Assembly (NCBI GenBank): GCA_965235115.1
Contig: OZ249436.1
Span: 3,846,001 to 3,910,000 of the forward strand
Reading direction: 5' to 3'
Source of the DNA: Laetmonice hystrix
Taxonomy: Eukaryota
Length of the DNA: 64,000 nt
Shown: piece after piece, positions 49 to 63,673 of the stretch
Layout: each line of letters begins with the position of its first letter
Position numbering within the stretch: the first letter of the stretch is position 1
Translations under genes and position numbers: made by a program
Notes under the pieces: model-generated
Databases searched by the model: none
What the model was told of the DNA's origin: nothing
The model's input: only the letters and a program-made list of their open reading frames with translations

Positions 49-3000
49 GTGATGACGCTTGCTGCACGGTTTATCCAGGACAGAAGTTTAACCCCGAACG
101 ACCTGACCAGAAATCACATAGCTACAATGAATCATATATTCTGTGGCCTCATGCCAGACGACATTACCAAGATCGGTTTGGAAGAGTTACGGTAGGTATA
201 ACTTTGCCTCTGTGATAGGCCTCGCAATACTCGGCCTATTGCCAAAGCTACACAAATGAGAACATTTTAAAACGCGCAGAATGGGATGCTATAGCGCACA
301 TAGCCAATCATTTCAAATGAAGTGTTGCCTTTACCTTCAGCCATTGAGTCCAATGAATTTAGCTCAAGTCCTTCTACAAAGCAGATCAGGTGATTTTTCA
401 AACGAAACGGGCCCTTCGACATCGTCACGGCCGGCGGCCATTTTAAATAAACAAAGGGAGCAGCTATAATATAAAAAGGGGGCCTGGATCTCGGGCCATA
501 ATGGAGGAGTGCTTGGCTCCTTGTGTGATGGTATGCTCCCCGACTGGTCTTCTGTGTGCATGCGCATTAGGACCAACAACATTGCAGGCAACGGAAATCG
601 AACTGCTCGGTTCGCATTTTTAAACGTCTGATTTATTAAATATATGGGATAAAAGCCCCCAAAAAGTGACCTTGCTGTACGGCTTGCTGTGTCCTATCCT
701 ATATGTTGTGTTACAGTGGGGCGGTGGCCGTGTTGGGCTTGCTGTGTCCTATCCTATATGTTGTGTTACAGTGGGGCGGTGGCCGTGTTGGGCTTGCTGT
801 GTCCTATCCTATATGTTGTGTTACAGTGGGGCGGTGGCCGTGTTGGGCTTGCTGTGTCCTATCCTATATGTTGTGTTACAGTGGGGCGGTGGCCGTGTTG
901 GGCTTGCTGTGTCCTATATCCTATATGTTGTGTTACAGTGGGGCGGTGGCCGTGTTAGGCTTGCTGTGTCCTATCCTATATGTTGTGTTACAGTGGGGCG
1001 GTGGCCGTGTTGGGCTTGCTGTGTCCTATCCTATATGTTGTGTTACAGTGGGGCGGTGGCCGTGTTGGGTTTGCTGTGTCCTATCCTATATGTTGTGTTA
1101 CAGTGGGGCGGTGGCCGTGTTGGGCTTGCTGTGTCCTATCCAATATGTTGTGTTACAGTGGGGCGGTGGCCGTGTTGGGCTTGCTGTGTCCTAACCAATA
1201 TGTTGTGCTACAGTGGGGCAGTGGCCGTGTTGGGTTTGCTGTGTCCTATCCTATATGTTGTGTTACAGTGGGGCGGTGGCCGTGTTGGGCTTGCTGTGTC
1301 CTATCCAATATGTTGTGTTGAAGTGGGGCGGTGGCCGTGTTGGGCTTGCTGTGTCCTAACCAATATGTTGTGTTGCAGTGGGGCGGTGGCCGTGTTGGGT
1401 TTGCTGTGTCCTATCCTATATGTTGTGTTACAGTGGTGCGGTGGCCGTGTTGGGTCTGCTCCAGCGGTGTTCGCGACCCGTCCTCCGGACGCTCGCCTCC
1501 CGATATAAAAACGAAATCTACGGCCGCACCGTGTCCGAATGGTCCGAGGACGACTTCGCCGAGGTTGGAATCGTAATAGGTAAGGTGCACTCCCCGCAGT
1601 TATAGATTAGGGTGGTGGGGGATGATTGGGTTGAAACTTCGAAAAGCTCTCAACAAGTAAAAAGAAATATTCCATATGGTGTTTTTCCACGAAAAACACC
1701 ATATATTGCGCCCTATAGGAGGCCAACATCCGGGGTACCCGGTCAGGGTTAGACCTATAGCGCTTTATATAAAATATGGCGTAGGCCTAGCAAAAAAAAA
1801 GAGATTTAATACAGAAACTAATTCGGATCCCAACTCAACTTTTCAACTGCTCCCAATATTTAAAAAAACAATATTTCATTACCAGCTGGACTGTCAGGAC
1901 GGGAGCTCATGTCAGCTGGACAAGCCCCGCTGGATCACATCGATAAAATTGTTGTTTTACACATGGCTGTAGAGGACTTTAAGGTAGGCATAATATTTGT
2001 TCACTATGTCGTAGATATTTTATTATTTGTACCTAGTAGTGTTACTTAAAATAGAACCATTATCTATGGTATTATCAGAGATAATAGATATTTCCTGGTA
2101 GAGAAATGATATTTTCATGCTGCGTTCAAATCCATAGATGCTGACTCCACAAAAACTGAGTTCGTTGCGGAAGGGCGCGGCCAAGGGCGCCCAGCAGAGG
2201 GGGTTCTGTCCACACCTCAGTGAGAAACAGAGGACAGCCGGACATATGAAAGAGGCGTGTCAAAACGACAGGTCTACCTCGAAAGGTGATTACAGGTCAA
2301 AAAGGACAATTATAAATCATGGGATGGATGGGCCGTCGGGTTATTTTTCTCCCATGCACGGAATCTTTAGGGACAGGGAGAGACCGAAGGTGTTGGGTGA
2401 TGCCTGACTCTGTGTTAGGTGTCGGGTTAGGGACAGGGAGAGGCCCAAGGTGTTGGGTGATGCCTGATTCTGTAAGGGTTAGGGACAGGGAGAGACTGAA
2501 GGTGTTGGGCGATGCCTGACTCTGTAAGGGTTAGGTGTCGGGTTAGGGACAGGGAGAGACCGAAGGTGTTGGGTGATGCCTGACTCTGTAAGGGTTAGGT
2601 GTCGGGTTAGGGACAGGGAGAGACCGAAGGTGTTGGGTGATGCCTGACTCTGTAAGGGTTAGGTGTCGGGTTAGGGACAGGGAGAGACCGAAGGTGTTGG
2701 GCGATGCCTGACTCTGTAAGGGTTAGGTGTCGGGTTAGGGACAGGGAGAGACCGAAGGTGTTGGGTGATGCCTGACTCTGTAAGGGTTAGGTGTCGGGTT
2801 AGGGACAGGGAGAGACCGAAGGTGTTGGGTGATGCCTGACTCTGTAAGTGTTAGGTGTCGGGTTAGGGACAGGGAGAGACCGAAGGTGTTGGGTGATGCC
2901 TGACTCTGTGTCGGGTTAGGGACAGGGAGAGACCGAAGGTGTTGGGTGATGCCTGACTCTGTGTCGGGTTAGGGACAGGGAGAGACCGAAGGTGTTGGGT

Positions 3001-8697: not shown

Positions 8698-9074
8698 GCG
8701 CCTTTGGCTACAACCCTAAGTGTTTAAAGGCTGTCGTGTCCAAGCCCCGTTTATATACCTGTGTCGTGGTCTGTGACTCACGCTGTAGGCCCCAACAGGT
8801 TCACTGCCAGTACTGGTGGTAGGGACCAGATGAGCAATGTTCAGTCGGGCAGTGTCGGTCACTCACAGTCACGTGGTGGTTTTGATGCTGTCTGTTCTGT
8901 ATTCAGTCCCCGAAAAAACTCTTTTATAGCAGGAGTATCTCGACTTAGGGGATAATTAAATTGTCTAATAAAATAATGGCCTGATGATTGATGATGAAAC
9001 GAAAGGTTATTCAGATTAAATTACAGAGTTTCAATTTCTTTTTTTCTCTAAACATTTTCAGACACTAATTCACC

Positions 9075-10856
<1,782 letters not shown>

Positions 10857-13352: not shown

Positions 13353-16300
13353 ATGCGTCGTGAGATGTCACTGCAGACGATGCCACCCTCCCGCCATAGT
13401 TACACACTCCGCCACACTCAACCCCCACTGGCTCTGAACACTGCCACAGCCAGTTACCGTGCCGGTACTGTAGCGGGTCAGACAAGGAACAAGTCGGTGA
13501 ATGAGACCACCCTGTCTACCATCAGCACCGCCATGAATGACCACAATCCTCGACCTGACAGCCATAGCAGCACATCCCTTACAGAAGATGGTGCTACCAT
13601 CACGTACCATGACGTTGTCTACTCGGTCCATGTGCGGCACAAATGTTGTGCGTCTTTCCCGAAACATATTATTAAAGGACTTAGGTAAGCACTGAACCCT
13701 CGCAAAGCCTGGAACGTTGTTGGTAAAATATCTAGGCTATATTTAGAGGTCTGGGGGTCATCAACCTGCGGTTGGAGTAGGGCAACCAAGTCGGCGGGAG
13801 ATTCAATGCTCGCTCAGGCCGCGGGGCACTGCAATCGATTGGGCTGCACCAACGAGTTGATTAGGCCTATGCAAAGGTGTCTCTATAGAGCGCTGCCAGA
13901 GACGTATAGGCCCATTAGGCCTATTTGAACGGTGTGTGCAGGTCTGAACTGACAAATAGTTTAAACCATAGAGCAGACTCTATGTAAACCAACAAAGATC
14001 ATGCAGTGGCCAGTATCCAGAATTTTTTTTAAGGGGGGGGGGGGGGGGGTCCGAACTTTCAAGGTACTTCAGAGATGGCCATTAGGCCATGCTCCTCTGG
14101 GAAACTTTAAAAAAGACATCAAATAATGCAATCTCGGGACATATCTTGTGTGGAAATATGAAGATTTCCTTTGGTTAGAACAATGCAATTTACATTCCCT
14201 TTAAAGTTAAATTAAGTTAATAGGCCTATAGTAATTTTTTAAGGGGGGGGGGGGGTCGGGGATACTTAGAAACCCCTCTTGATACGCCACTGGTATTTGT
14301 CAGTTTAGATCCAGGCCTAAACTGACAAACATCAGGGCCGGATCCGGGGGGGGGGGGGGGGGGGGGGGGTTGCACCCCCCCTTAGAAATCCCCCCCCCCC
14401 CAAAAAAAAAGAAAAATAAAGGTGTCAATTGTCCGTCATACAGGAACGACAGTGTGAATCTAAAATCTATAAAGCCATACGTAGCTGATATAGGCCTATA
14501 TATTTCATAAAAATATAATAATTTCGGACTAGACCGCAACCCCCACTTGCCCCCCCCCTTGAAAAATCCTGGGTCCGACCCTGCATAATGATCACTATAA
14601 AAAAATCGCCTAATTTGAACTGATTCTCCATGACAGGAATGTAGCCTGCATTGCTTAGAAAAATATTGAGAGTGCATATATTTACTTCAATTTCAGATCA
14701 TATATATCGAAATTTCTTTTTGAAAAATCAATTAATCTACCTATATTTGAATTGATCAATATAAATTTATTAGTGCTACTTGTTCAGCCTAAACCTTCCA
14801 GGCCCGTAGCTATAGGCCCTTACCCTTGTAGGTATCATTCAATTGCAGTGTGATGCACATGTATCTACATGTGCATCATGATGTATACATTTGCAAACAT
14901 TATGTTTTTATGAATATATAAAGCCATTACTAACTAGGCTTACTATTCCCCACGCAGTGGACACTTCAAACCAGGGATGAATGCCATTATGGGAGCCACT
15001 GGAAGTGGAAAAACATCGTAAGTACATTCTTCATTTCTAAAGCAATCAGCGAGTATCTCTCATTTCAATGACTCCAAAATGTAGACAAAATCGTTGACTT
15101 GGCATTCATTGGTTCATCGTCCGATGATCGAGTTTCATTGGCTCTCCAAGTCAATGCCAGGTCAACAACCATCCATGAAACGTTCGCTTTATGGCGACAA
15201 CAGGAATGTGGAATTTCATTAGATTCCTCCATTTTTGTGGGAAACGTAAATTGACTTATGTAGTCTAAGGCCTTATGTAACCATGTCCATGTCTTCATTT
15301 TTGAGTCATTGAAATAAGAACTACTCGCTGATCGATTGCTTTAAACGTCTTTCCTTCAGGTCAAATTTTACTGATCCAACTGCTAAGATTGGCAGGGGTT
15401 TATATAAATATAATAACCTTAAAAACAAAAATTCCTGGTGTCAGTATTTTCCTAGTGTGGGAGGAAAATATAGCTACAAATAAAAGAATAATCTCATTGA
15501 ACCCATCTAACCCATGCCCCGTAACATGAATTTATTGTGTCGTCTCACCAGTGGTGGTGGTATCAGACACGTGTAAACCTACATGGCCTCCGACACAAAA
15601 CCACCATTACTCACTCACTCACCAACACGGCCACCGACACAAAACCACCATTACTCACTCACTCACCAACACGGCCTCCGACACAAAACCACCATTACTC
15701 ACTCACTCACCTACACGGCCTCCGACACAAAACCACCATTACTCACTCACCAACACGGCCTCCGACACAAAACCACCATTACTCACTCACTCACCTACAC
15801 GGCCTCCGACACAAAACCACCATTACTCACTCACTCACCAACACGGCCACCGACACAAAACCACCATTACTCACTCACTCACCAACACGGCCTCCGACAC
15901 AAAACCACCATTACTCACTCACTCACCTACACGGCCTCCGACACAAAACCACCATTACTCACTCACTCACCAACACGGCCTCCGACACAAAACCACCATT
16001 ACTCACTCACTCACCTACACGGCCTCCGACACAAAACCACCATTACTCACTCACCAACACGGCCACCGACACAAAACCACCATTACTCACTCACTCACCA
16101 ACACGGCCTCCGACACAAAACCACCATTACTCACTCACTCACCAACACGGCCTCCGACACAAAACCACCATTACTCACTCACTCACCTACACGGCCTCCG
16201 ACACAAAACCACCATTACTCACTCACTCACCAACACGGCCTCCGACACAAAACCACCATTACTCACTCACTCACCAACACGGCCTCCGACACAAAACCAC

Positions 16301-46797: not shown

Positions 46798-49700
46798 ATG
46801 GCGAAAGTGCAGAAGAGGTGTTTCTTGCCATATTTGATTCTTGTCCATACGAACATATTGTACAGCATAGCGGGAACCACTATTTCTGATCCAAGATTAC
46901 TCCATCCACCCGCATGCCTCGGCCTGCCGCCTGGGGCGCCGACAGAGGCGTACGTCAAGGTCGGCGATGTCATGGTGGGTGCGATTCTGTCGATCCGACA
47001 CGTCAGTCATACTGACGTCAATCATCCGTGCAGTACCAGTGTCTCCGACTCGCGTCTCCAGCAGAGCGTGGAAGCGTTCGTATACGCCGTCAGGGAGATT
47101 AACCGAGACGTGACGATTTTACCGAATGTGACCTTGGGGTTTGTCATTCAGGACGACTGCAGACGACCGTCAGTGGCTTTAGCAAGGGCCATTAGTCTTG
47201 TAGCAAACTATGACGTCCCGGGGCAGGACCAGACGTGTGGAGTCCGGGCCAACTGGAGTCAATATGGCGGGGATGGCGGTGGGCCGGGGCAGGGGCCAGC
47301 GGGGCAGGGGCAGGGGCCGGCGGGGCAGGGACCGGCGGGGCAGGGGCCAGCGGGGCAGGGACCGGCGGGACAGGGACCGGCGGGGCAGGGACCGGCGGGG
47401 CAGGGACCGGCGGGGCAGGGGCCGGCGGGGCAGGGACCGGCGGGGCAGGGACCGGCGGGGCAGGGACCGGCGGGGCCTGTGCCCCCCTCCCCCGGCAGGA
47501 TCCCGGCAGGGGTGGTGGCAGTGATAGGACCCACGGCCAGCCACAGAGTGGCAGCGGTGTCCACCTTCCTCAGCCTCTACCGGGTCCCCATCCTGAGTCC
47601 GGAGGCGACGAGTGACGAACTTGACGACCAGTTCGAATACCCATTCTTCATGCGAGTTGTGCCCCCTGACAGGTTCCAAGCGGACGCCATCGCCGACTTC
47701 ATCAGCTTCTTTAACTGGACCTATGTGTCCTTAGTGCACAGCGACAACAAATATGGGATTAATATAGCACGGCGATTAATTTTCGGGTTTAAAAGTCGTA
47801 ATATCTGCGTCGCGCTTACAACTGACATAAGTACGTCAAAAGCAAGCCACTCTGCGGAAAGTCTACTTGAACAGCTCCGTCATTACAGCAGTGCTCGGGT
47901 CGTGATCCTGGCTCTGTCACTGGCAGAAGGCAGGGATTTTCTGCACGCCGTACGGGTCCTCAAGGCAGCGGGGGAATTCATATTTATTGCAACCGAGACC
48001 TTCGATCAGAGAATTACTTCAGGATATGAAGACGAAGTCCTTGGTCTTTACTCGCTCGCTATTCCGTTGGGCAGAGACGAGGGGTTTGCAGAGCATTTCG
48101 CTAATCTTAATCCCTGGAATAACCAAGCCAATCCATGGTATTCGGAGCTATGGCAAAATGTCTGTAACTGTACTTGGAACCCGGGAGATAGGGAAGGTAG
48201 AACACATTGTTCCAGTTTTAGACAAATCCAAGATTGCGGCGATTACACTTTCTCTGAATGGACCTCCAAGTTGATAGATTCGGTCTATGTGGTGGCGCAT
48301 GCCTTGAACAAACTTGCTGAGAGTGATTGTTCTGTCCCTGCCGCCTTCTCTCCGACCGCCTTCCGTAACTGTATATCTGGACCTCTGCTCCTGGCTGAAA
48401 TGGCGAAGGTGAACTTTACCGGTGTTTCCGGTCAGGTGACCTTTGACGGCGGAAGCAGTCCGCTAGCACGGTACGACATTATGCAGCAAGGTCATTCTAA
48501 CGGGGGCTATACCCGGCGGACGGTGGCGACTTGGAGACAGGCAATGGATGGGATAAACGGGCTGACCCTGACAGGTACTCCAGAATTTTACCTGAAGGAC
48601 AAAGAGAGGCCGTTTGGTGACCAGGGAAAGATTACTCGGACCCTGGTAGTTCCGTTATCCGAGTGTAGCCGGCCGTGTGAGATAGGGTTTGCATACGCCA
48701 TGCACCACGCACCTTGCTGTTGGCACTGCCAGCAATGTCAGAAAAATGAAATCGTCAACGACAATGAGACATCATGCCTCCAATGTCCTCGGTTCCACTG
48801 GCCTGAGCCAAGATTACGAAAGCAATGCCTGCAAATCACACCAACCTATCTGGACTGGAAAACTTCCTTCGGAGTCGCCCTGGTGGCGACCGCCGCGGTG
48901 GGACTATGTGCCATCATTATTTGGATACTGATCACAGTGACAGTCAAAGAAAGAATAATAATAAAGGCCTCCAGTCTGCCCCTGTTAATATTCACATCCA
49001 CCGGCATCCTTCTCATGTTTATCAGCGCTGTGTCCTTCACGCTGCCACCAACCCTGATCCGGTGTAACCTCAGTCACTTTGGTTTCCATGCAAGCTCCAC
49101 CATGTTGTACGCGCCACTCCTCCTGAAGACCGCCATGATACACCGCATCTTTATGTCCTCAAAAAAATGTCGCCGACCACGGCGTCTCATCACTGTTCGA
49201 GCTCAACTGATCATGGCGGCGGCGATCGTCGTCTTCCAGGTTCGTATGACACTACACATCTGTATTTTCTTTTTTTGTCAATAGAATTTAACGAAATACG
49301 TTCAGTTATTCGTGATTATAGACCTCCACTCTGTGCCAAGCCTGACCTGCCAATAAGAAAGTCCACAGAAAGTGAACGTAATAGGCTCAGATATACCAGG
49401 CCCGGTTTCTTGGTGGAGCTTGAGCTGAAATTCTTGGCTCAAGCTCAAGGATTTGAAGCTTGAGCCAAGGATTCTCGGCTCAAGCTCAAATTTGGGTTTC
49501 ACAGTCATGTCCCAGCTCAAGCTCAAGCTCAACGGCCGTCTGACTGTGAAACCCAAATTTGAGCTTGAGCCGAAAATCCTTGGCTCAAGCTCCAAATCCT
49601 TGAGCTTGAGCCAAGAATTTCAGCTCAAACTCCACCAAGAAACCGGGCCCTGACTGTGTTGACTTGTCTTATATAATACTCAATGTACACGTATATGTGA

Positions 49701-50406
49701 TATATCCAAGCAAACAGTAGGAAGTGTGTAACAGCCGTATTCTTCCTCTGTTTATCCTTGCAGTGTCTCCTCATTGAGACTGTATCTACAGTTGTGTGGC
49801 TGGTTAATGAGCCCAGCGAAGAGTCGGTGATTGGTAACACCCGTATTCTGCCTCTGTTTATCCTTGCAGTGCCTGCTCATTGAGACAGTATCTACAGTCG
49901 TGTGGCTGGTTAATAACCCTAGCGAGGAGTCGGTGAATGGCGACATGCCCCTCCCCACGGTTCCTCAACGATTCATGCCACCAAGTTCACGTCAAGTCGT
50001 CCTGTTCTGTGCCACGTACACAGCCTCGTTTTACACGCCCATCTTGTTCAATCTCCTCCTGATATTATTGTGTCTAACCTTCGCCTTCCTCACACGGAGT
50101 TTACCCGAGGCTTTCAATGAGACTTGGTATATCTTACTAACAGTTATTAGTACGTTAGTGGTTTGGTTATCGTTTCTAACATCACATGCTATCGTACCAC
50201 AGAGGGAGTACAAGGAGGCCCTCCTGTCCCTGGCCCTGTCCGTCGGCGGCCACTCGGCTCTTCTCTTTCTATACGCTCCCAAGATCTACGCCTTAATGTT
50301 CCTGAATGATACGGATATTGTTATTTCAAAGTTTTCTAATGAAAACAAATCTAGGCCATCTCTAACGATTACCTCCGGTGGAGACCAGGGCGGATCACTG
50401 AAGTGA
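46798..50406 (+). CDS. Class C GPCR, metabotropic glutamate receptor-like (VFT + cysteine-rich + 7TM)
   Basis: Exons 46798-49239 (start could be 46735) and 49870-50406. Motifs: ILPNVTLG..IQDDC, VVAVIGP, ATSDEL, YPFFMRVVPPDRFQA, FNWTYVS, NPWY.ELWQ, SECSRPC, CCWHC, KASS, LLLKT..I.RIF, TRSLPEAFNET, YAPKIY. Confidence 0.93.
47284..47477 (+). repeat. Coding 15-bp repeat, (QGPAG)x12
   Basis: CAGGGACCGGCGGGG units in frame inside the class C GPCR exon. Confidence 0.93.
49397..49652. mobile_element. Near-perfect ~250-bp palindromic MITE in class C GPCR intron
   Basis: CAGGCCCGGTTTCTTGGTGGAG ... CTCCACCAAGAAACCGGGCCCTG; ~110-bp arms; CAG/CTG flanks. Confidence 0.85.
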
Positions 50407-52088: not shown

Positions 52089-55000
52089 TCACGAGAGAAG
52101 AGAAAACTTGCGGTCCTTCCTGGAAGGGGTACGAGCAAACATGGGCGAGCCTGGGGAGGCCAGCTGGGCCATGTTATCATACACAGACAGCTGGTCCGGG
52201 TTGCCGGTGGCTGAGGCACAGTCTGGGGCCAGGTAGTCGATCTTGAGACGGGCCCCGATCTGCTGCAGGAGTACTGTCTGCTGCTGGGCACACACTTGAA
52301 GACCTCGTAACCTGTGCGCCACAAAACGAAAACCACACTAGGAGGTCAACATGGCACACTTTCACGAAAGTTGGTGGTAAATACATGTAATAAAAAATTA
52401 TCGTTATCTTTGGCCCCTAACCCCGCCGCCCAGACATCCACCAACCTCTAGCCCTGCCCCTAACCTCACCACCCAGACATCCACCAACCTCTAGCCCTGC
52501 CTCTAATCCCGCCGACCAGACATCCACCAACCTCTAGCCCTGCCCCTAACCCCGCCACCCAGACATCCACCAACCTCTAGCCCTGCCCCTAACCCCACCA
52601 CCCAGACATCCACCAAGCTCTAGCCCTGCCCCTAACCCCGCCACCCAGACATCAACCAACCTCTAGCCCTGCCCCTAACCCCGCCGACCAGACATCCACC
52701 AACCTCTAGCCCTGACCCTAACCCCGCCACCCAGACATCCACCAACCTCTAGCCCTGCCCCTAACCCCACCACCCAGACATCCACCAACCTCTAGCCCTG
52801 CCCCTAACCCCGCCACCCAGACATCCACCAAGCTCTAGCCCTGCCCCTAACCCCGCCACCCAGACATCCACCAACCTCTAGCCCTGCCCCTAACCCCGCC
52901 ACCCAGACATCCACCAACCTCTAGCACTGCCCCTAACCCCCCGCCACCCAGACATCCACCAACCTCTAGCCCTGCCCCTAACCCCGCCGACCAGACATCC
53001 ACCAACCTCTAGCCCTGACCCTAACCCCGCCGCAGAGACATCCACCAACCTCTAGCCCTGCCCCTAACCCCGCCGCAGAGACATCCACCAACCTCTAGCC
53101 CTGCCCCTAACCCCGCCACCCAGACATCCACCAACCTCTAGCCCTGCCCCTAACCCCGCCGCCCAGACATCCACCAACCTCTAGCCCTGCCCCTAACCCC
53201 ACCACCCAGACATCCACCAACCTCTAGCCCTGCCCCTAACCCCACCGACCAGACATCCACCAAGCTCTAGCCCTGCCCCTAACCCCACCGACCAGACATC
53301 CACCAACCTCTAGCCCTGCCCCTAACCCCGCCACCCAGACATCCACCAAGCTCTAGCCCTGCCCCTAACCCCGCCACCCAGACATCCACCAACCTCTAGC
53401 CCTGCCCCTAACCCCCTGCCGACCAGACATCCACCAACCTCTAGCCCTGCCCCTAACCCCGCCACCCAGACATCCACCAACCTCTAGCCCTGCCCCTAAC
53501 CCCGCCACCCAGACATCCACCAACCTCTAGCCCTGCCCCTAACCCCACCGACCAGACATCCACCAAGCTCTAGCCCTGCCCCTAACCCCACCGACCAGAC
53601 ATCCACCAACCTCTAGCCCTGCCCCTAACCCCGCCACCCAGACATCCACCAAGCTCTAGCCCTGCCCCTAACCCCGCCACCCAGACATCCACCAACCTCT
53701 AGCCCTGCCCCTACCCCCCCCCCCACCAGACATCCACCAACCTCTAGCCCTGCCCCTAACCCCGCCGCACAGACATTCACCAACCTCTAGGCCTGCCCCT
53801 ACCCCCCCCCCCCCCACCAGACATCCACCAAGCTCTAGCCCTGCCCCTAACCCCGCCACCCAGACATCCACCAACCTCTAGCCCTGCCCCTACCCCCCCC
53901 CCCCCACCAGACATCCACCAACCTCTAGCCCTGCCCCTAACCCCGCCGCACAGACATTCACCAACCTCTACCCCCCCCCCCCCCATCACGCCCATGTTGG
54001 ATAAGAAAAACATCGCGCCCTGACCTGCTTTGATGTTGGCGGAACTCGCGCTCCATTCGTTCTAGTCGTTCTGCCAGACGATCGCGCTTGTCGCGTTGTA
54101 TAAAGTGGACGTTCTGCGAACTCCCAATGGCCAGTCGTTTTAGCTGCGGGAAGTTAGACAGAAACAAGTATCATTAACGGATAACGTTAGACAAAAGGTT
54201 AGACAGAAACAAGTATCATTAACGGATAAAGTTAGACAGAAACAAGTATCATTAACGGATAAAGTTAGACAGAAACAAGTATCATTAACGGATAAAGTTA
54301 GACAGAAACAAGTTTTAGCTGCGTCAAGTTAGACAGAAACAAGTATCATTAAATAATGTTAGACAAAAACAAGTTTTAGCTGCGGGAAGTTAGACCAGTA
54401 GATCATTTCGTTACACACTCATACCTTGTGCCACCACCAGTGAATCGTTTCGTTACACAGTCATACCTTGTGCCACCACCAGTGGATCGTTTCGTTACAC
54501 AGTCATACCTTGTGCCACTACCAGTGGATCGTTTCGTTACACAGTCATACCTTGTGCCACCACCAATGGATCGTTTCGTTACACAGTCATACCTTGTGCC
54601 ACCACCAGTGGATCGTTTCGTTACAAAGTCATACCTTGTGCCACCACCAGTAGATCGTTTCGTTACACTGTCATACCTTGTGCCACCACCAGTGGATCGT
54701 TTCGTTACACAGTCATACCTTGTGCCACCACCAGTGGATCGTTTCGTTACACTGTCATACCTTGTGCCACCACCAGTGGATCGTTTCGTTACACAGTCAT
54801 ACCTTGTGCCACCACCAATGGATTGTTTCGTTACACAGTCATACCTTGTGCCACCACCAGTGGATTGTTTCGTTACACTGTCATACCTTGTGCCACCACC
54901 AGTGGATTGTTTCGTTACACAGTCATACCTTGTGCCACCACCAGTGGATCGTTTCGTTACACAGTCATACCTTGTGCCACCACCAGTAGATCGTTTCGTT

Positions 55001-58000
55001 ACACTGTCATACCTTGTGCCACCACCAGTGGATCGTTTCGTTACACAGTCATACCTTGTGCCACCACCAGTGGATCGTTTCGTTACACTGTCATACCTTG
55101 TGCCACCACCACTGGATCGTTTCGTTACACAGTCATACCTTGTGCCACCACCAGTGGATTGTTTCGTTACAGTCATACCTTGTGCCACCACCAGTGGATC
55201 GTTTCGTTACACTGTCATACCTTGTGCCACCACCAGTAGATCGTTTCGTTACACTGTCATACCTTGTGCCACCACCAGTAGATCGTTTCGTTACACTGTC
55301 ATACCTTGTGCCACCACCAGTGGATCGTTTCGTTACACAGTCATACCTTGTGCCACCACCAGTGGATCGTTTCGTTACACTGTCATACCTTGTGCCACCA
55401 CCAGTGGATCGTTTCGTTACACAGTCATACCTTGTGCCACCACCAGTGGATTGTTTCGTTACAGTCATACCTTGTGCCACCACCAGTGGATCGTTTCGTT
55501 ACACTGTCATACCTTGTGCCACCACCAGTGGATCGTTTCGTTACACTGTCATACCTTGTGCCACCACCAGTGAATCGTTAGGTACACAGTCATACCTTGT
55601 GCCACCACCAGTGGATCGTTAGGTACACAGTCATACCTTGTGCCACCACCAGTGGATTGTTTCGTTACACAGTCATACCTTGTGCCACCACCAGTGGATC
55701 GTTTCGTTACACAGTCATACCTTGTGCCACCACCAGTGGATCGTTTCGTTACACAGTCATACCTTGTGCCACCACCAGTGGATCGTTTCGTTACACAGTC
55801 ATACCTTGTGCCACCACCAGTGGATCGTTTCGTTACACAGTCATACCTTGTGCCACCACCAATGGATCGTTTCGTTACACTGTCATACCTTGTGCCACCA
55901 CCAATGGATCGTTTCGTTACACTGTCATACCTTGTGCCACCACCAATGGATCGTTTCGTTACACAGTCATACCTTGTGCCACCACCAGTGGATTGTTTCG
56001 TTTGGTTTGATGACGGCCCTCCGGACGTATACCTTCCGTTGTAACCACCGTGGCATTGTGTTCTCAAAGTTGTACAATAAATCCACCTGCAAGACAACAC
56101 AGGCATGTTTACTTCACAAACCAGCAGGATCTATATTATATCTCACAATGCACTCAGTGATAACGCCTGTAGGACTACTATATCTCATAATGCACTCAGT
56201 GATACCGCCTGTAGGACTATTATATCTCATAATGCACTCAGTGATAACGCCTGTAGGACTATTATATCTCACAATGCACTCAGTGATACCGCCTGTAGGA
56301 CTATTATAATTCGATCAGTTATACCGACCTGTAGGGCTATACGTTTTAAGTACGCATTCCTTTGGATCTTTTCAATGTCACCAACAGCTATACCGATCTG
56401 TAAAGAAAAGATATCGTATCGTATGTTGGCATGTTTTTGTTTGTGTGTTAAGGTTATAAATGTGACAACTTCTATAGATTTTGCCAAGAAACTGGGCAGT
56501 TTGTGAACAATATGGAATATAAAGGGCCTTATCCACTAAGCCGGTCAGCCGATTCTGAAAATACACCAGTATGGTTGGCTCTACTATACTGAGGACGTGA
56601 ACGGTGAAGCTCAGTTTTTGTCCCTTTACTGTCCGATTACGCCTCCCTTTTCTAGTTCGTCCACAGAAGTCAGCAGTGCTTGATATGGCCGGAGGTGATC
56701 AGGCTGGGGAAGGTCATGTATGGCAACATCTCCATTTGGTGGTTACAACTCAAAATCTATAATCACAATGTCAACCTCCATCCAAAACCTATCGGCATCC
56801 CTACCCCCAGACAAAGCCCTCTGTCCCTGCCCCTGCACCCAACCCCCAATTGTGAAGAAATGTCACCATAGGTTACCCACCATGTCACCAAGGGTTACCC
56901 ACCATGTCACCAAGGGTTACCCACCATGTCACCAAGGGTTACCCACCATGTCACCAAGGGTTACCCACCATGTCACCAAGGGTTACCCACCATGTCACCA
57001 AGGGTTACCCACCATGTCACCAAGGGTTACCCACCATGTCACCAAGGGTTACCCACCGTGTCACCAAGGGTTACCCACCATGTCACCAAGGGTTACCCAC
57101 CAGGTCACCAAGGGTTACCCACCATGTCACCAAGGGTTATCCACCATGTCACCAAGGGTTACCCACCATGTCACCAAGGGTTACTCACCATGTCACCAAG
57201 GGTTACCCACCGTGTCACCAAGGGTTACCCACCATGTCACCAAGGGTTACCCACCATGTCACCAAGGGTTACCCACCATGTCACCAAGGGTTACCCACCA
57301 TGTCACCAAGGGTTACCCACCGTGTCACCAAGGGTTACCCACCGTGTCACCAAAGGTTACCCACCGTGTCACCAAGGGTTACCCACCGTGTCACCAAGGG
57401 TTACCCACCGTGTCACCAAGGGTTACCCACCGTGTCACCAAAGGTTACCCACCGTGTCACCAAGGGTTACCCACCATGTCACCAAGGGTCACCAAGGGTT
57501 ACCCACCATGTCACCAAGGGTTACCCACCATGTCACCAAGGGTTACCCACCATGTCACCAAGGGTTACCCACCATGTCACCAAGGGTTACCCACCATGAG
57601 GTTCATGAGGACAAGGGGCATGAGGAAGAGGAAGATGACGAGCAGGATGTAAACATCCGCTTGGAACGGTTTGAGGTCAGGGGTGACGAAGTTATCGACG
57701 AACTCGATCTCTCCCAGCGTCATGACGAACGTATTGAGGACGGCCGTCCCGATACTCCCGAATACTTCCTGTAACCAAGACAACGGTTTACCAAACCCTG
57801 GCATAACATATGGTCACGACAATTATAATAAAGACGATTTATTTAGTGTGTGATGGGTCTACACCATTTATAGTTGTTACAAGCGTTCGTACAAGAGTGT
57901 GAATCTTGTTAGGACACCAAGTATAACATTAAGATCCACTGTTACTAACTGTCAAACAGTTTTGATGACTTTTAACTGAATTACAGATAAGATGTAATAC

Positions 58001-61000
58001 TTTGAGCATGTTTCCATTATTTTGGATTATCATTAGATCAATCAATGATAAAAGCATGCAAATAAACTGTCGAGAGGGTTTGAGGAATTAGGTATGTATA
58101 CACCACTAGTCGAGAACATATAATATTATACGTCTCAAGTCAACACCCTTCTATAAGAATGGACTCTCTCCTTTTGTTAGTGACAACGAATGAACTCATG
58201 AACATCATCGTTCGGCCCCATGCCTCTTTAGTACAGTCAGAATGAGAAACATAAAACTATCTTTACTTACCCAACGCTCCTAAAACACGTGTTAATGACA
58301 GCAGAAAATAGGAAGGTCTTTAGTTTCTCCACTAATACACCGAACATTAGCACAATTAAACAGCTCAAAAGAAGAAGATTAGCCTATCTCTTCGATTTAA
58401 TAATATTGTTAGCAGATTAATTGTTAGAAAATAATCAAATAAAATGTTTTCAATTGTTAATTTCTGAAGACACTCCCTATGATAGCTGAACGCCTCGCCT
58501 GGACCCGACCTGACAGAATATGCGAGATCACACTTAGCCAAAATTGGTGGAGAAGAAATTGGGTTTCCAGGACGCACTTGTTAGCAATTTAAAGGGGCAC
58601 CTAAATGTCCAAAATGACACTATTTCAGAATTTTCGGAAGGGTTAACTGTCTCCCCCCCCCCGGTCCAGGATATTGGAAAGAGGAGGGGTGGTCATGAGG
58701 ACCAACTGGCAAAAGGGGGTCAAACGGGGATCATTCGGAAAGAACTAACTTGAACAGAAAATGGAGAAAACTTGGTGCCAAAGAGGATGGGTCAGACCTC
58801 GTGAACCCCCTATGTTCGCCCCTGCCCTTCTCATGCACCTGGATGTAACCAACCTTTTGGTCACCCTTCTCCTGGGTGTACATGAGGACGTAGAAGGACC
58901 CGGCAAAGGCCCAGCAGAAGAAGAAATAGACGAGAACAGCCTATCCGAATCAAAGAGATGTTAAATATTATTTCCACTATGACCATGGCATGAAGTGCTG
59001 TTGGGAACCAAGAAGGCAGTGTGATGTGTAACGTCGTGATAAAAGCGCGCCAGAACGTACACTGCTTCTCCAAAATTCATGTTCCGCTCAAGAACAGGAA
59101 AACCAGAAGAGCCTGTGGCAAGAAACCGTCAGTGTATAGAAGTGCTATGTGACCGACGTGACGGGTGTATAGAAGTGCTATGTGACCGACGTGACGGGTG
59201 GACAAACACACGATGGGTCCAGTATCTGAAACCTAAAACCCAGTGGCAGCAGCAGCAGCAGGTGTTGGCCACCTACCGGTAAAATAAGACGCATGGTGCC
59301 GTAAAAGGCATTGGCAAACGCACAGCTGAAGAACAGCCACAGCGACGACACCTGCAAATTAGGGTCCGACAAAAAATGACAATGAAACATACAATTTTCA
59401 TCATTTAATAGAAGTACTAAACAGAACTACATAACTTGTTACACAATTATCTTACATCTGCTGTCTTTAAATTATGCACGTCTTGCCTAGGATGTGTATC
59501 TTGATACACTTGTACAATCATGTAACTTTTATACCTGTTGTACTTATCTGTCGTTTGCATCTTCAAAAAACACCAGGCCCATTCAGAAAGATTTCACTCT
59601 TTGATTTTGTTAACACATTCCAGATCAACGAAATTCCTGTAATCTTCTAGCTAACTAAAACTGATTACGACGAAAGTGTTCTTGTACATTTGTTTGTTTA
59701 ATTTCGTATAAACTATTATGTGGCTTCACGTCTAGTCACCAATGCACTTAACGTACACTGACACTGCGACTTGTTTGTAAGTGATTTACTTAGTAATGGT
59801 AACTTTCTGGGAAATGTACAATACAAAAATACCTTACCTTTAATAAACTGCTTAGCACGGTCACAAACATTATGACGTATATTCCTACAAAGTCGATCCT
59901 GTAAAATTAGAAGCCATGATGTGATTCGTAGTGTTGAAGGACAAAGAAAGGTCATAACGTGTCTTCTCATACAAATCAAGAATTCGGGTGAATCTGTCGT
60001 TACTTTGTCTCAACTATTGACACCGTTTTCTGCCGCAGATGTTATAGAACAGTTAAATGACATGTTTTGATGAAAAACGCTTCCATTGTTGTTGAAAGCC
60101 CTCAGTAGATTTAAAACATCGACCCTGCACACTTTGTCAACTAAGGCCATCTACACATGGAAAATAAAATAAAATCACTTCAAGATGAAATTGCCATCAA
60201 AGTATAAGTATGATAAAGTTTATGCTAAGATGGTGAGTGTACACCTATCGGCGGAGGTACATGATAAAGTTTATCCTAAGATGGTGAGTGTACACCTACC
60301 GGCGGAGGTACATGATAAAGTTTATACTAAGATGGTGAGTGTACACCTATCGGCGGAGGTACATGATAAAGTTTATACTAAGATGGTGAGTGTACACATA
60401 CCGGCGGAGGTACATGATAAAGTTTATCCTAAGATGGTGAGTGTACACCTACCGGCGGAGGTACATGATAAAGTTTATACTAAGATGGTGAGTGTACACA
60501 TACCGGCGGAGGTACATGATAAAGTTTATACTAAGATGGTGAGTGTACACCTACCGGCGGAGGTACATGATAAAGTTTATACTAAGATGGTGAGTGTACA
60601 CATACCGGCGGAGGTACATGATAAAGTTTATACTAAGATGGTGAGTGTACACATACCGGCGGAGGTACATGATAAAGTTTATACTAAGATGGTGAGTGTA
60701 CACCTACCGGCGGAGGTACATGATAAAGTTTATACTAAGATGGTGAGTGTACACCTACCGGCGGAGGTACATGATAAAGTTTATACTAAGATGGTGAGTG
60801 TACACATACCGGCGGAGGTACATGATAAAGTTTATACTAAGATGGTGAGTGTACACCTACCGGCGGAGGTACATGATACAGTTTATACTAAGATGGTGAG
60901 TGTACACCTACCGGCGGAGGTACATGATACAGTTTATACTAAGATGGTGAGTGTACACCTACCGGCGGAGGTACATGATAAAGTTGATGCTAAGATGGTG

Positions 61001-63673
61001 AGTGTACACCTACCGGCGGAGGTACATGATAAAGTTGATGCTAAGATGGTGATTATACACCTATCGGCGGAGGTACATGATAAAGTTTATGCTAAGATGG
61101 TGAGTGTACACCTACCGGCGGAGGTACATGATAAAGTCTATACTAAGATGGTGAGTGTACACCTACCGGCGGAGGTACATGATAAAGTTTATACTAAGAT
61201 GGTGAGTGTACACCTACCGGCGGAGGTACATGATAAAGTTTATACTAAGATGGTGAGTGTACACATACCGGCGGAGGTACATGATAAAGTTTATACTAAG
61301 ATGGTGAGTGTACACCTACCGGCGGAGGTACATGATACAGTTTATACTAAGATGGTGAGTGTACACCTACCGGCGGAGGTACATGATACAGTTTATACTA
61401 AGATGGTGAGTGTACACCTACCGGCGGAGGTACATGATAAAGTTTATACTAAGATGGTGAGTGTACACCTACCGGCGGAGGTACATGATAAAGTTTATAC
61501 TAAGATGGTGAGTGTACACATACCGGCGGAGGTACATGATAAAGTTTATACTAAGATGGTGAGTGTACACATACCGGCGGAGGTACATGATAAAGTTTAT
61601 GCTAAGATGGTGAGTGTACACCTACCGGCGGAGGTACATGATAAAGTTTATGCTAAGATGGTGAGTGTACACCTACCGGCGGAGGTACATGATAAAGTTT
61701 ATGCTAAGATGGTGAGTGTACACCTACCGGCGGAGGTACATGATAAAGTTGATGCTAAGATGGTGAGTGTACACCTACCGGCGGAGGTACATGATAAAGT
61801 TGATGCTAAGATGGTGAGTGTACACCTACCGGCGGAGGTACATGATAAAGTTGATGCTAAGATGGTGATTATACACCTATCGGCGGAGGTACATGATAAA
61901 GTTTATGCTAAGATGGTGAGTGTACACCTACCGGCGGAGGTACATGATAAAGTCTATGTTAAGATGGTGAGTGTACACCTACCGGCGGAGGTACATGATA
62001 AAGTCTATGCTAAGATGGTGAGTGTACACCTACCGGCGGAGGTACATGATAAAGTTTATACTAAGATGGTGAGTGTACACCTACCGGCGGAGGTACATGA
62101 TAAAGTTTATACTAAGATGGTGAGTGTACACCTACCGGCGGAGGTACATGATAAAGTTTATACTAAGATGGTGAGTGTACACCTACCGGCGGAGGTACAT
62201 GATAAAGTTTATACTAAGATGGTGAGTGTACACCTACCGGCGGAGGTACATGATAAAGTTTATACTAAGATGGTGAGTGTACACCTACCGGCGGAGGTAC
62301 ATGATAAAGTTTATACTAAGATGGTGAGTGTACACCTACCGGCGGAGGTACATGATAAAGTTTATACTAAGATGGTGAGTGTACACCTACCGGCGGAGGT
62401 ACATGATAAAGTTTATACTAAGATGGTGAGTGTACACCTACCGGCGGAGGTACATGATAAAGTTTATACTAAGATGGTGAGTGCACACCTACCGGCGGAG
62501 GTACATGATAAAGTTTATACTAAGATGGTGAGTGTACACATACCGGCGGAGGTACATGATAAAGTTTATACTAAGATGGTGAGTGTACACCTACCGGCGG
62601 AGGTACATGATAAAGTTTATACTAAGATGGTGAGTGTAAACCTACCGGCGGAGGTACAGGATAAAGTTTATACTAAGATGGTGAGTGTAAACCTACCGGC
62701 GGAGGTACATGATAAAGTTTATGCTAAGATGTACACCTACCGGCGGAGGTACATGATAAAGTCTATGCTAAGATGGTGAGTGTACACCTACCGGCGGAGG
62801 TACATGATAAAGTTTATACTAAGATGGTGAGTGTACACCTACCGGCGGAGGTACAGGATAAAGTTTATACTAAGATGGTGAGTGTAAACCTACCGGCGGA
62901 GGTACAGGATAAAGTTTATACTAAGATGGTGAGTGTAAACCTACCGGCGGAGGTACATGATAAAGTTTATACTAAGATGGTGAGTGTAAACCTACCGGCG
63001 GAGGTACATGATAAAGTTTATACTAAGATGGTGAGTGTAAACCTACCGGCGGAGGTACATGATAAAGTTTATACTAAGATGGTGAGTGTAAACCTACCGG
63101 CGGAGGTACATGATAAAGTTTATACTAAGATGGTGAGTGTAAACCTACCGGCGGAGGTACATGATAAAGTTTATACTAAGATGGTGAGTGTACACCTACC
63201 GGCGGAGGTACATGATAAAGTTTATACTAAGATGGTGAGTGTACACCTACCGGCGGAGGGACATGATAAAGTTTATACTAAGATGGTGAGTGTAAACCTA
63301 CCGGCGGAGGTACATGATAAAGTTTATACTAAGATGGTGAGTGTAAACCTACCGGCGGAGGTACATGATAAAGTTTATACTAAGATGGTGAGTGTACACC
63401 TACCGGCGGAGGTACATGATAAAGTTTATACTAAGATGGTGAGTGTAAACCTACCGGCGGAGGGACATGATAAAGTTTATACTAAGATGGTGAGTGTACT
63501 ACCTACCGGCGGAGGTACATGATAAAGTTGATCCATGCCATGAAGAGAGCGAGCCAGCCAGCCCGCCACTGACGCAGACACGGATAGTACCCGATCGGGT
63601 AGATGAACGCGTATGTAGTCGCAACCAGAATCAACGCTATCAGATTGAAGACGTTGAAAAAATATTTAAATCC
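52089..63673 (-). CDS. TRPA1: TRPA1-like transient receptor potential channel, S3 to C-terminus (ankyrin region outside window)
   Basis: Exons 63673-63507 (QWRAGWLALFMAWINFIMYLRR), 59898-59838 (IDFVGIYVIMFVTVLSSLLK), S5 exon 59351-59277 or 58940-58854, 57768-57595 (NTFVMTLGEIEF...MPLVLMNLM), 56397-56329 (IGIAVGDIEKIQRNAYLKRIALQ), 56086-55973, 54143-54025, 52311-52089. Phases are consistent; matches recalled TRPA1 S4-S6 and TRP-like helix. Orthology within TRPA is not established. Confidence 0.9.
52413..53975 (-). repeat. 43-bp G-rich (on pre-mRNA strand) minisatellite, ~36 copies, last TRPA intron
   Basis: Plus-strand unit CCCCTAACCCCGCCACCCAGACATCCACCAACCTCTAGCCCTG. Confidence 0.95.
54138..54396 (-). 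repeat. Degenerate array copying a TRPA acceptor region
   Basis: Plus-strand TTTTAGCTGCGGGAAGTTAGAC (acceptor GCAG|CTAAAA on minus) at 54138, ~54313, ~54374, with AAGTTAGACAGAAACAAGTATCATTAACGGATA units between. Confidence 0.8.
54396..56002 (-). repeat. 42-bp array, ~38 copies of TRPA exon end plus donor
   Basis: Minus-strand unit AACGAAACGATCCACTGGTGGTGGCACAAG|GTATGACTGTGT; real donor at 55973/55972. Confidence 0.96.
56132..56342 (-). repeat. ~43-bp array, ~4 copies with inactivated donor copies
   Basis: Minus-strand ATAGTCCTACAG|GCGGTAT or GCGTTAT copies versus the real ATAGCCCTACAG|GTCGGTAT at 56329. Confidence 0.75.
56861..57598 (-). repeat. 22-bp array, ~33 copies seeded on TRPA S6 donor
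   Basis: Minus-strand unit CATG|GTGGGTAACCCTTGGTGA; real donor at 57595/57594. Confidence 0.96.
58271..58279 (-). CDS. Candidate 9-nt microexon (ERW) of TRPA1-like gene
   Basis: Minus strand: TTTTCTGCTGTCATTAACACGTGTTTTAG|GAGCGTTGG|GTAAGTAAAG in a phase-0 intron. Confidence 0.45.
58854..58940 (-). CDS. TRPA S5 exon, variant B
   Basis: GATAG|...AAG|GTTGGT, 87 nt, AVLVYFFFCWAFAGSFYVLMYTQEKGDQK. Confidence 0.8.
59277..59351 (-). CDS. TRPA S5 exon, variant A
   Basis: TTTGCAG|...CCG|GTAGGT, 75 nt, VSSLWLFFSCAFANAFYGTMRLILP. Confidence 0.75.
60209..63533 (-). repeat. 51-bp array, ~65 copies of TRPA S4 exon end plus donor
   Basis: Minus-strand unit AAACTTTATCATGTACCTCCGCCG|GTAGGTGTACACTCACCATCTTAGTAT; real donor at 63507/63506. 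Confidence 0.97.

What the first reader, a model, noticed from the sequence alone, without database searches (positions are those of the whole stretch)
682..63533. Window-wide pattern: tandem arrays built from exon-intron junctions (splice-site amplification)
Seen: in five intact genes, repeat units straddle a real splice junction. Acceptors: 1434 (55 bp x14), 49870 (106 bp x2), 54143 (x3). Donors: 22085 (42 bp x13), 23752 (~100 bp x5), 24589 (decayed copy ~24735-24782), 25287 (27 bp x~23), 40538 (38 bp x2), 55973 (42 bp x~38), 56329 (x~4), 57595 (22 bp x~33), 63507 (51 bp x~65). The units are unrelated in sequence, so this is a recurring process, not one repeat family. The exon-proximal copy preserves the protein, and all stages from a 2-copy duplication to a 3.3-kb array are present. 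Inference: either a mutational mechanism that prefers junctions (transcription, R-loop or splicing coupled) or survival bias, together with a spliceosome that picks the exon-proximal site among dozens of near-identical ones.
Basis: partly seen in the sequence, partly recalled or inferred. Interest (0 to 1): 0.88.

Follow-up and report, generated by a model that had tools for sequence, protein, structure and literature searches.

The report
Splice-junction "mirage" minisatellites across several genes
In this invertebrate genome many introns are filled with tandem copies of their own exon edge plus splice signal, a repeat type already named "mirage" in lancelets and seen before in this scan, so it is a dense, clean example and not a new kind of element.

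Summary
All 12 listed arrays exist at the stated coordinates. Spliced mapping against homologous proteins supports 11 of the 12 junctions. The acceptor at 1434 is only plausible.

The units are unrelated in sequence. They carry 4 to 71 bases of exon next to the splice signal.

This is the "mirage" minisatellite of amphioxus (PMC3087553, PMC3902484). It also resembles the human F7 intron 7 VNTR (PMC1557585). This scan has already reported the same thing on other DNA: once in this genome (LIG1), and in sea urchin and annelid genes.

New here:
- The same kind of array sits over the stop codon of the ABCG2-like gene, and also over the stop codon of its paralogue on another contig.
- The rest of the TRPA-like gene, outside the window, shows three more donor arrays.
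- I ran a placement null. Donor-straddling arrays number 10 of 34 against 3.7 expected (P about 0.001). The excess weakens to P about 0.06 if the ancestral introns were half as long.
- Acceptor arrays are not enriched (2 against 3.7).

Most likely reading: ordinary minisatellite birth in a repeat-rich genome with short introns, filtered by selection. No RNA data exist for this animal, so which splice site is used remains inferred.

The parts
681..1454 (+). 55-bp x 14 array. Each unit holds a polypyrimidine tract, AG, and about 21-27 bases like the start of the exon that begins at 1434. There are 13 decoy acceptors with AG.
   Evidence: The exon is conserved (P0123, E = 1.5e-6). The acceptor is plausible but unproven.
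22050..22596 (+). 42-bp x 13 array: 36 bases of ABCG2-like exon end plus GTTGGT. There are 12 decoy donors identical to the real one (last exon base 22085). It is the only array open in frame throughout.
23717..24223 (+). About 100-bp x 5 array: 36 bases of exon plus 64 of intron. Real donor after 23752, with 4 decoys keeping GT.
24533..24778 (+). Exon end 24533-24589 (donor after 24589) and its decayed, gapped second copy at 24735-24778.
   Evidence: 0 of 300 shuffles reach the score
25275..25901 (+). 27-bp x 23 array: 13 bases of exon plus 14 of intron. Real donor after 25287. The intron without the array would be about 77 bases.
26063..26713 (+). 61-bp x 10.7 array whose unit is the last about 51 coding bases of the ABCG2-like gene, its TGA stop and 7 bases beyond. 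It straddles a stop codon, not a splice site.
40522..40602 (+). 38-bp x 2.1 duplication: 17 bases of exon plus 21 of intron of a rhodopsin-type receptor gene. Real donor after 40538, with 1 identical decoy.
47307..47476 (+). 15-bp x 11 array in frame inside the large exon of the class C receptor gene (GQGPA repeats). It shows that arrays also arise inside exons.
49728..49940 (+). 106-bp x 2 duplication: 36 bases of intron end plus 70 of exon of the class C receptor gene. The real acceptor gives first exon base 49870; the decoy is at 49764.
54144..54395 (-). Acceptor-side repeat of the TRPA-like gene: polypyrimidine tract, AG and 7 exon bases, present three times (2 decoys plus the real one; first exon base 54143).
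54394..56002 (-). 42-bp x 38 array: 30-32 bases of exon plus 10 of intron. Real donor after 55973 on the minus strand, with 37 identical decoys. Together with the acceptor repeat it fills the whole 1829-base intron.
56134..56340 (-). 42-bp x 4 array plus the diverged junction copy (donor after 56329). The array copies read CAGGCGG where the junction reads CAGGTCGG, so they have no GT.
56860..57598 (-). 22-bp x 33 array that begins at the donor (last exon base 57595) and shares only 4 exon bases. It has 32 decoys with GT.
60210..63529 (-). 51-bp x 65 array: 23 bases of exon plus 28 of intron. Real donor after 63507, with 64 decoys, 60 of them with GT.
15577..18387 (+). For contrast: two large arrays (44 x 27 and 30 x 48) inside ABCG introns 2 and 3. 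They do not reach a junction (50 and 33 bases away) and show no likeness to it.
52413..53974 (-). For contrast: a 43-bp x 36 G-rich array inside a TRPA intron, 50 bases from the donor and about 100 from the acceptor.

Best explanation
These are 'mirage' minisatellites: local tandem duplications whose unit happens to include an exon boundary.

Shown:
- The genome is rich in minisatellites.
- With the arrays collapsed to one unit, the host introns are short (about 50 to 650 bases).
- The units are unrelated to one another.
- Each unit is an exact or near-exact copy of the neighbouring exon edge plus its splice signal.

Inferred:
- A first duplication arises by replication slippage or unequal exchange at a more or less random place.
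- It then grows by the usual minisatellite dynamics.
- If it lies wholly inside a coding exon it survives only when it is in frame and tolerated. If it lies in an intron or UTR it is free.
- If it crosses a boundary it survives because the machinery uses the first signal it meets: the first donor after the exon, or the first stop codon. The extra copies then stay in the intron or the 3' UTR.

Short introns make boundary hits geometrically common. Copies upstream of an acceptor are tolerated less well, which gives the surplus of donor over acceptor arrays. A residual donor-side excess remains unexplained.
For: Array anatomy in register.
Junctions from homologous proteins.
Units unrelated.
Collapsed intron lengths 52-653 bases for the introns holding straddling arrays.
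The placement null already expects 3.7 donor and 3.7 acceptor straddlers among 34 arrays.
Exon share of the unit runs from 0.18 to 0.86 and fits a uniform spread (KS P = 0.52).
The same structure occurs at a boundary that has nothing to do with splicing: the stop codon of the ABCG2-like gene (61 bp x 10.7) and of its paralogue on contig 11 (33 bp x 3).
An in-frame coding array.
The introns at 22085 and 23752 are shared with the paralogue, so they predate the arrays.
Reading through to a decoy donor meets an in-frame stop within 1-57 bases in 7 of 8 window donor arrays and 3 of 3 outside. Misuse would therefore give transcripts with premature stops.
A transcript-like protein of a relative (P0121, 83% identical over the pore exon) is contiguous across four of the junctions.
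Arrays cover about 31% of the window (my sum coordinates), 12.7% of 80 kb taken at fixed places, and 8.8% of a 219-kb sample.
Literature: amphioxus mirages do not disturb splicing (PMC3087553 section 16; PMC3902484). Experiments on F7 intron 7 show 5'-to-3' scanning that takes the first of identical donors (PMC1557585 abstract).
Against: Donor-straddling arrays exceed the uniform null (10 against 3.7, P = 0.0013). A pure filter can only remove arrays and cannot produce an excess.
Donor arrays also have more copies than internal ones (median 21 against 4.8, one-sided Mann-Whitney P = 0.016).
Outside the window, 7 of 10 TRPA arrays have an edge within 12 bases of a junction, against 2.7 expected (P = 0.003).
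No RNA of this animal was available, so use of the proximal site is inferred from homology alone.
The first duplication and its mechanism are not observed.
Copy numbers rest on one assembly.
Confidence: 0.7

Rival explanations
1. A mutational process coupled to the 5' splice site makes tandem duplications start preferentially at exon-intron donors. Candidates are transcription-replication conflict, R-loops, or pausing at exon ends.
For: Donor straddlers are 10 of 34 against 3.7 expected, P = 0.0013.
The donor to acceptor ratio is 10:2.
With a stricter overlap of 9 bases or more the count is 9 against 3.1, P = 0.0012.
Donor arrays are larger.
Against: The excess falls to P = 0.059 if the ancestral introns were half as long.
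It is 3 against 1.14 (P = 0.09) outside the ascertained window.
The ABCG paralogue has 0 straddlers among 5 intronic arrays.
Breakpoints show no preferred distance from the junction.
Stop-codon arrays in two paralogues cannot be splice-coupled.
In 219 kb of other DNA, donor-like motifs in array units are not significantly enriched: 11 of 46 against 7.4, P = 0.10.
Confidence: 0.2
2. The arrays are kept because they do something. They could be U1-binding decoys that protect long introns or tune splicing. At 22085 they could act as a dial that adds 14-residue blocks to the protein.
For: GT is kept in nearly all decoys: 12 of 12, 37 of 37, 60 of 64, 32 of 32.
The 22085 array is open in frame for 170 codons.
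Its only two variant positions are synonymous.
Against: Young, homogenised arrays keep every position, not only GT. The donor 9-mer is no more and no less variable than other 9-base windows (ranks 0.05 to 1.0 across 9 arrays).
At 56329 the copies have lost GT.
10 of 11 arrays would give premature stops if a decoy were used.
Homologous proteins show no insertion at 22085.
Confidence: 0.06
3. The introns themselves were created by tandem duplication of an exonic AGGT segment (the Rogers model, which the amphioxus globin paper proposes for mirages).
For: The intron 55973 to 54143 consists almost only of junction copies; its collapsed length is about 52 bases.
The intron 24590-24900, which holds a decayed exon-end copy, is absent from the paralogue.
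Against: The introns at 22085 and 23752 are at the same positions in the paralogue.
Every array is followed by unique intron sequence before the acceptor.
In the intron 24590-24900 the exon copy lies 122 bases from the acceptor, and the intron start does not resemble the next exon (score 24, reached by 129 of 300 shuffles).
Confidence: 0.02
4. The arrays are assembly artefacts.
For: Copy numbers come from a single assembly. The only runs found are short k-mer contigs of one sample, and these cannot span an array.
Against: The arrays carry ordered internal variants and higher-order periods.
They are flanked by unique sequence.
The same architecture is found at many loci and on two contigs.
Comparable arrays were confirmed by resequencing in amphioxus (PMC3902484 passage).
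Confidence: 0.02

Closest known systems
Amphioxus 'mirage' minisatellites (Adh3, globins BflGb6 and BflGb9, troponin C, PGBD5). The term is from Canestro et al. 2002, which I know only through Ebner et al. 2010 (PMC3087553) and PMC3902484.
   Same: Tandem repeats whose unit spans an exon-intron boundary, at either the 5' or the 3' side. Units run from tens to about 160 bases, many copies keep AG or GT, several occur in one gene, and the boundary copy stands apart from the homogenised interior.
   Different: The host is not a lancelet. Its best named protein matches are molluscan, at 29-70% identity. The density is higher here: at least 10 boundary arrays in 64 kb and up to 65-91 copies. The same structure over stop codons is not mentioned in the passages I read. 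Normal splicing and length instability were shown there and not here.
Human F7 intron 7 37-bp VNTR (Borensztajn et al. 2006, PMC1557585; abstract and outline read)
   Same: The first repeat element spans the exon-intron boundary, so the true donor is followed by identical pseudo-donors.
   Different: That is a single locus in a mammal with few copies, and silence of the pseudo-sites was shown with 50 constructs. Here there are many loci and no expression data.
Intron gain by tandem duplication of an AGGT-containing exon segment. Rogers is cited in PMC3087553. The potato RdRp case is PMC4974935 (search listing and start of abstract only). Zhuo 2007 and Gao and Lynch 2009 are recalled, not seen.
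   Same: A local tandem duplication that includes splice signals.
   Different: In that model the duplication creates the intron. Here the arrays sit in introns that are older than the arrays (shared with a paralogue), and unique intron sequence follows each array.
Ordinary intronic and coding minisatellites (VNTRs)
   Same: Unit sizes, homogenisation, higher-order variants, and G-rich members with a GGGGCAGGG core.
   Different: Only the position of the unit relative to an exon boundary.

Membership tests
Mirage minisatellite | Head-to-tail tandem repeat with a unit of minisatellite size | tested here: met
   TRF periods 22-106 and 2-65 copies; register prints.
Mirage minisatellite | The unit spans an exon-intron boundary, holding exon sequence plus the splice signal | tested here: met
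   Met for 10 window arrays with 7-70 exon bases. Marginal for 57595 (4 bases). The junction at 1434 is unproven.
Mirage minisatellite | Regular splicing is not disturbed; only the authentic site is used | not testable with these tools
   No RNA holder is listed. Indirect support only: homologous proteins, and a relative's transcript-like protein, match the proximal-site product.
Mirage minisatellite | Length instability between haplotypes or individuals | not testable with these tools
   The only runs are k-mer contigs of one sample.
F7 intron 7 type pseudo-donor array | The true donor is followed by pseudo-donors identical in sequence | tested here: met
   Identical 9-mers: 12 of 12 (22085), 37 of 37 (55973), 51 of 64 (63507), 20 of 32 (57595). 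Not met at 56329 (0 decoys).
F7 intron 7 type pseudo-donor array | Pseudo-sites are functional but silent because of 5'-to-3' scanning | not testable with these tools
   Needs minigenes or RNA.
Intron created by tandem duplication (Rogers model) | The intron consists of the duplicated exon segment, and its position is new | tested here: not met
   Intron positions at 22085 and 23752 are shared with the paralogue. Unique intron sequence follows the arrays. For 24590-24900 the expected end-to-end likeness is absent.

The most novel reading that the evidence does not exclude
The donor-side surplus is real across the whole genome. In this animal, and perhaps in marine invertebrates with many minisatellites generally, tandem arrays are born or grow preferentially at 5' splice sites through a process tied to transcription or splicing. 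They are then tolerated because the first donor always wins. The arrays would thus mark a junction-specific kind of genome instability.
Probability: 0.2. Interest if true: 0.65.

Novelty: new member of a known kind. Interest (0 to 1): 0.35.

Why it matters
Natural genes with up to 64 near-identical decoy donors behind the real one are ready-made tests of how splice sites are chosen. They extend the F7 case from a handful of copies to dozens, and from donors to acceptors.

Boundary arrays occur at stop codons as well as at splice sites. That suggests one simple rule: extra copies are harmless wherever the first signal ends the reading.

If the donor excess holds genome-wide, it would point to a link between splicing or transcription and repeat instability that has not been described. 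The searches turned up no genome-wide test in the library.

For annotation, such arrays are a trap: they offer gene predictors many false splice sites.

Tried and rejected
RNA evidence: the look-up of sequencing runs listed no RNA holder. The three runs are DNA-like k-mer contigs of one sample. Laid on 38000-52400, they break at repeats and say nothing about copy number or decoy use.

Because of that, a planned sample of the one conserved intron in at least 45 class C receptor paralogues could not be fetched.

Annotation-free test: I scored a donor weight matrix, trained on 33 array-free donors, on the units of 46 arrays from 219 kb of other DNA. At the 25th-percentile threshold the result was 11 against 7.4 expected, P = 0.10. 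At higher thresholds it was 4 against 2.3 and 2 against 0.7. None is significant, power is low, and one locus in that sample overlaps the TRPA gene.

Selection on decoy donors: per-position variability across 9 arrays shows no consistent excess or deficit at the donor 9-mer.

Hidden junction origin of the internal arrays at 16960, 15577 and 52413: no likeness to the nearby junction beyond chance (285 of 500, 497 of 500 and 95 of 500 shuffles reach the score).

Gene X: Pfam finds nothing. The library-wide HMMER search gave one credible 69-residue homologue and two repetitive hits.

Homology could not fix the class C junction on its own, because relatives are only 27-31% identical. It rests on reading frame, Pfam coverage and HSP ends.

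Synonymous-only differences between copies (22085 array; 6 of 8 changed codons in the 106-bp pair) are too few to mean anything.
Full report
WHAT THE WINDOW IS

The window is G000 contig 1, 3,846,001-3,910,000, from a 627-Mb animal genome in 35 contigs. Pfam and homology searches identify these genes:
- a conserved exon of an unidentified gene at about 1434-1581;
- ribosomal protein S9 at about 9069-10840;
- an ABCG2-like transporter at 13557-26116 on the plus strand;
- two rhodopsin-type receptor genes at about 34900-36570 and 38108-41300;
- a class C receptor at about 46800-50406;
- the 3' half of a TRPA-like channel gene on the minus strand, from the window's end down to about 52113.

The best named protein matches are molluscan or vertebrate at 29-70% identity. 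The host is therefore an invertebrate of unsettled phylum. It is not a lancelet or a sea urchin with close relatives in the protein collection.

THE OBSERVATION

TRF finds 58 rows, about 38 distinct arrays. By my own sum of their coordinates they cover about 20 kb, 31% of the window.

I mapped exons with tblastn, using six ABCG2 proteins and two TRPA-like proteins. I then chose, for each pair of neighbouring exons, the GT-AG pair whose joined translation aligns best to the homologues.
- Donors after 22085, 23752, 24589, 25287, 55973, 56329, 57595 and 63507.
- Acceptor at 54143.
- The donor after 40538 follows from the frame and the GTAAGA site of the three-exon receptor gene.
- The acceptor at 49870 follows from frame, Pfam coverage (7tm_3 positions 1-132 in exon 1 and 119-251 in exon 2) and HSP ends. 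The homologues are too distant to decide it alone.
- At 25287 homology scores did not single out the site. I prefer it because it has the GTAAGT consensus and, with the acceptor at 25965, keeps a cysteine in the extracellular loop.

Printed in register, the units are plainly copies of exon edge plus signal:

| Junction | Unit (bases) | Exon part | Intron part |
|---|---|---|---|
| 22085 | 42 | 36 | 6 |
| 23752 | about 100 | 36 | 64 |
| 25287 | 27 | 13 | 14 |
| 40538 | 38 | 17 | 21 |
| 55973 | 42 | 30-32 | 10 |
| 63507 | 51 | 23 | 28 |
| 49870 | 106 | 70 | 36 |

At 54143 there are three copies of tract, AG and 7 exon bases.

Decoys with a 9-base donor identical to the real one number 12 of 12 (22085), 37 of 37 (55973), 51 of 64 (63507) and 20 of 32 (57595).

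Two claims need trimming. The 57595 array shares only 4 exon bases. The copies at 56329 are homologous to the junction (0 of 500 shuffles) but have lost the T of GT.

The decayed copy at 24735-24778 is real (0 of 300 shuffles).

The array at 681-1454 is real, and its last unit runs into a conserved exon. Whether that exon starts at an acceptor (1434) or at an in-unit ATG (1420) is open. The one credible homologue starts aligning at the proposed exon start.

- A 61-bp x 10.7 array at 26063-26713 is built from the last about 51 coding bases of the ABCG2-like gene, its stop codon and 7 bases beyond.
- The ABCG paralogue on contig 11 has a 33-bp x 3 array over its own stop codon, with an unrelated unit.
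- A 15-bp x 11 array lies in frame inside the class C receptor exon.
- Large arrays also lie inside introns without touching a junction: 15577-16761, 16960-18387 and 52413-53974. They show no likeness to the nearby junction.

OUTSIDE THE WINDOW

I fetched the next 40 kb and mapped the rest of the TRPA-like gene. Five of the 18 exon pairs gave no plausible or no homology-decided junction. For three of them I used approximate positions, and the two ankyrin-repeat pairs were left out.

Ten arrays of period 22 or more lie in these introns:
- Three straddle donors: after 67443 (40 bp x 19), 75249 (30 bp x 91) and 79773 (52 bp x 3), in window-extended coordinates.
- One straddles an acceptor by 6 bases.
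- One touches an acceptor by 2 bases.
- Two end 8-10 bases short of an acceptor.
- Three are internal.

The ABCG paralogue has five small intronic arrays. None straddles a junction, and one starts 9 bases after a donor.

IS IT MORE THAN PLACEMENT BY CHANCE?

For each of 34 arrays (period 15 or more) in mapped introns, I collapsed all arrays in that intron to one unit. I then asked how often a unit-long seed, placed uniformly wherever it overlaps the collapsed intron, would cover at least 3 exon bases at the donor or at the acceptor.

Left out of the test:
- arrays of period under 15;
- the ABCG linker region 20562-22019, whose exons I could not map (two small arrays);
- all intergenic arrays and gene X.
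Two TRF rows of one acceptor repeat were merged. One internal array in the S9 gene was added by hand.

Collapsed introns are short, 52 to 653 bases where straddlers occur, so chance alone predicts many hits.

| Set | Arrays | Donor observed | Donor expected | P (donor) | Acceptor observed | Acceptor expected |
|---|---|---|---|---|---|---|
| All | 34 | 10 | 3.7 | 0.0013 | 2 | 3.7 |
| Window only | 19 | 7 | 2.5 | 0.005 | 1 | 2.5 |
| Outside the window | 15 | 3 | 1.14 | 0.09 | 1 | 1.14 |

With collapsed lengths halved, the donor excess over all 34 arrays is P = 0.059, and acceptors show a deficit (P = 0.03). Requiring 9 exon bases changes little.

Other measures:
- Donor arrays have more copies than internal ones (median 21 against 4.8, P = 0.016).
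- The exon share of the unit is evenly spread.

The window is itself an extreme. Arrays cover 31% of it, against 12.7% of 80 kb taken at fixed coordinates on eight contigs and 8.8% of a 219-kb sample. In that sample, donor-like motifs in array units are not significantly enriched (11 of 46 against 7.4, P = 0.10).

The robust result is the asymmetry between donors and acceptors. The donor excess over chance is suggestive and not settled.

HOW IT MOST LIKELY WORKS

Shown:
- independent local duplications of exon boundaries;
- short host introns;
- introns older than the arrays, because positions are shared with a paralogue;
- the same structure at stop codons;
- in-frame arrays inside an exon.

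Inferred: seeds arise anywhere and expand. Selection removes those that change the product. A seed that crosses a boundary is harmless, because the first donor after the exon, or the first stop codon, ends the reading.

Use of a decoy donor would bring an in-frame stop within 1-57 bases in 7 of 8 window arrays and in 3 of 3 outside. Only the 22085 array is open throughout.

That the first of identical donors is taken was shown by experiment for human F7 intron 7 (PMC1557585, abstract). Here it is inferred from protein homology and from a relative's transcript-like protein that is contiguous across four junctions.

Decoy donors are neither more nor less variable than the rest of the unit.

COMPARISON WITH WHAT IS KNOWN

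Ebner et al. [quoted passage not shown] These occur at both boundaries, with units of 150-160 bases there and 10-72 bases in Adh3. Many copies keep AG or GT, splicing is normal, and lengths differ between haplotypes. The authors call the mechanism unclear (PMC3087553, abstract, section 16 and legends). The PGBD5 paper adds further lancelet cases (PMC3902484, one passage). I did not see the founding paper, Canestro et al. 2002.

Earlier notes of this scan report the same structure in this genome's LIG1 gene and in sea urchin and annelid genes. Those notes gave me the name and the F7 reference, which I then read. Two of them report RNA showing that the last acceptor copy is used. I did not check that.

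My searches for a genome-wide test of junction enrichment (listings only) found none.

VERDICT

This is a real, dense and well-preserved example of a known oddity in one more animal lineage. The additions are the stop-codon arrays and a first, fragile estimate of a donor-side excess.

Noticed in passing
window 26063-26713; L036-L038 (paralogue, oriented coordinates 22009-22110): Both ABCG2-like paralogues carry a tandem array that starts in the last coding bases and includes the stop codon. The units are unrelated (61 and 33 bp).
   Followed up: partly
G000, many contigs: At least 45 class C receptor genes share the window gene's structure: one large exon ending near residue 712 of the query, then a second exon. 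They would give a ready unbiased sample of one conserved intron. I could not fetch them.
   Followed up: no
window 49281-49856: The class C receptor intron holds sequence with k-mer depth about 100 times the single-copy level in the DNA runs, so it is probably a dispersed repeat. Unitigs break at 49280 and resume at 49857-49876.
   Followed up: no
window 47286-47465, 52452-53937, 56825, 32155: The 9-mer GGGGCAGGG occurs 44 times against 0.5 expected, almost all of them in two arrays: the coding 15-bp array and the 43-bp intronic array. Other G-rich arrays in this genome carry TTAGGG-like cores. As I recall it, this resembles the classic human minisatellite core.
   Followed up: partly
window 24590-24900: This ABCG intron is absent from the paralogue, where the two exons form one (oriented 21011-21262). 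That means intron gain or loss since the gene duplication. The intron holds the decayed exon-end copy.
   Followed up: partly
window 22050-22596 and 49728-49940: Differences between copies are mostly synonymous: both variant positions in the 42-bp array, and 6 of 8 changed codons in the 106-bp pair. The numbers are too small to test.
   Followed up: partly
window 34900-36570: An upstream paralogue of the rhodopsin-type receptor gene has its first exon spread over several frames, so it may be a pseudogene. It holds two small arrays (35369-35470 and 35740-35894) that do not touch a junction.
   Followed up: no
L033 (extended coordinates 82393-82461): A (GACA)17 microsatellite begins at position +5 of the TRPA donor after 82465. 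It was not counted because its period is under 15.
   Followed up: no
window 2476-4361 and 26995-28901: Two large arrays (64 bp x 30 and 26 bp x 73) lie outside any mapped exon structure. Their relation to gene X and to the ABCG 3' UTR is unknown.
   Followed up: no
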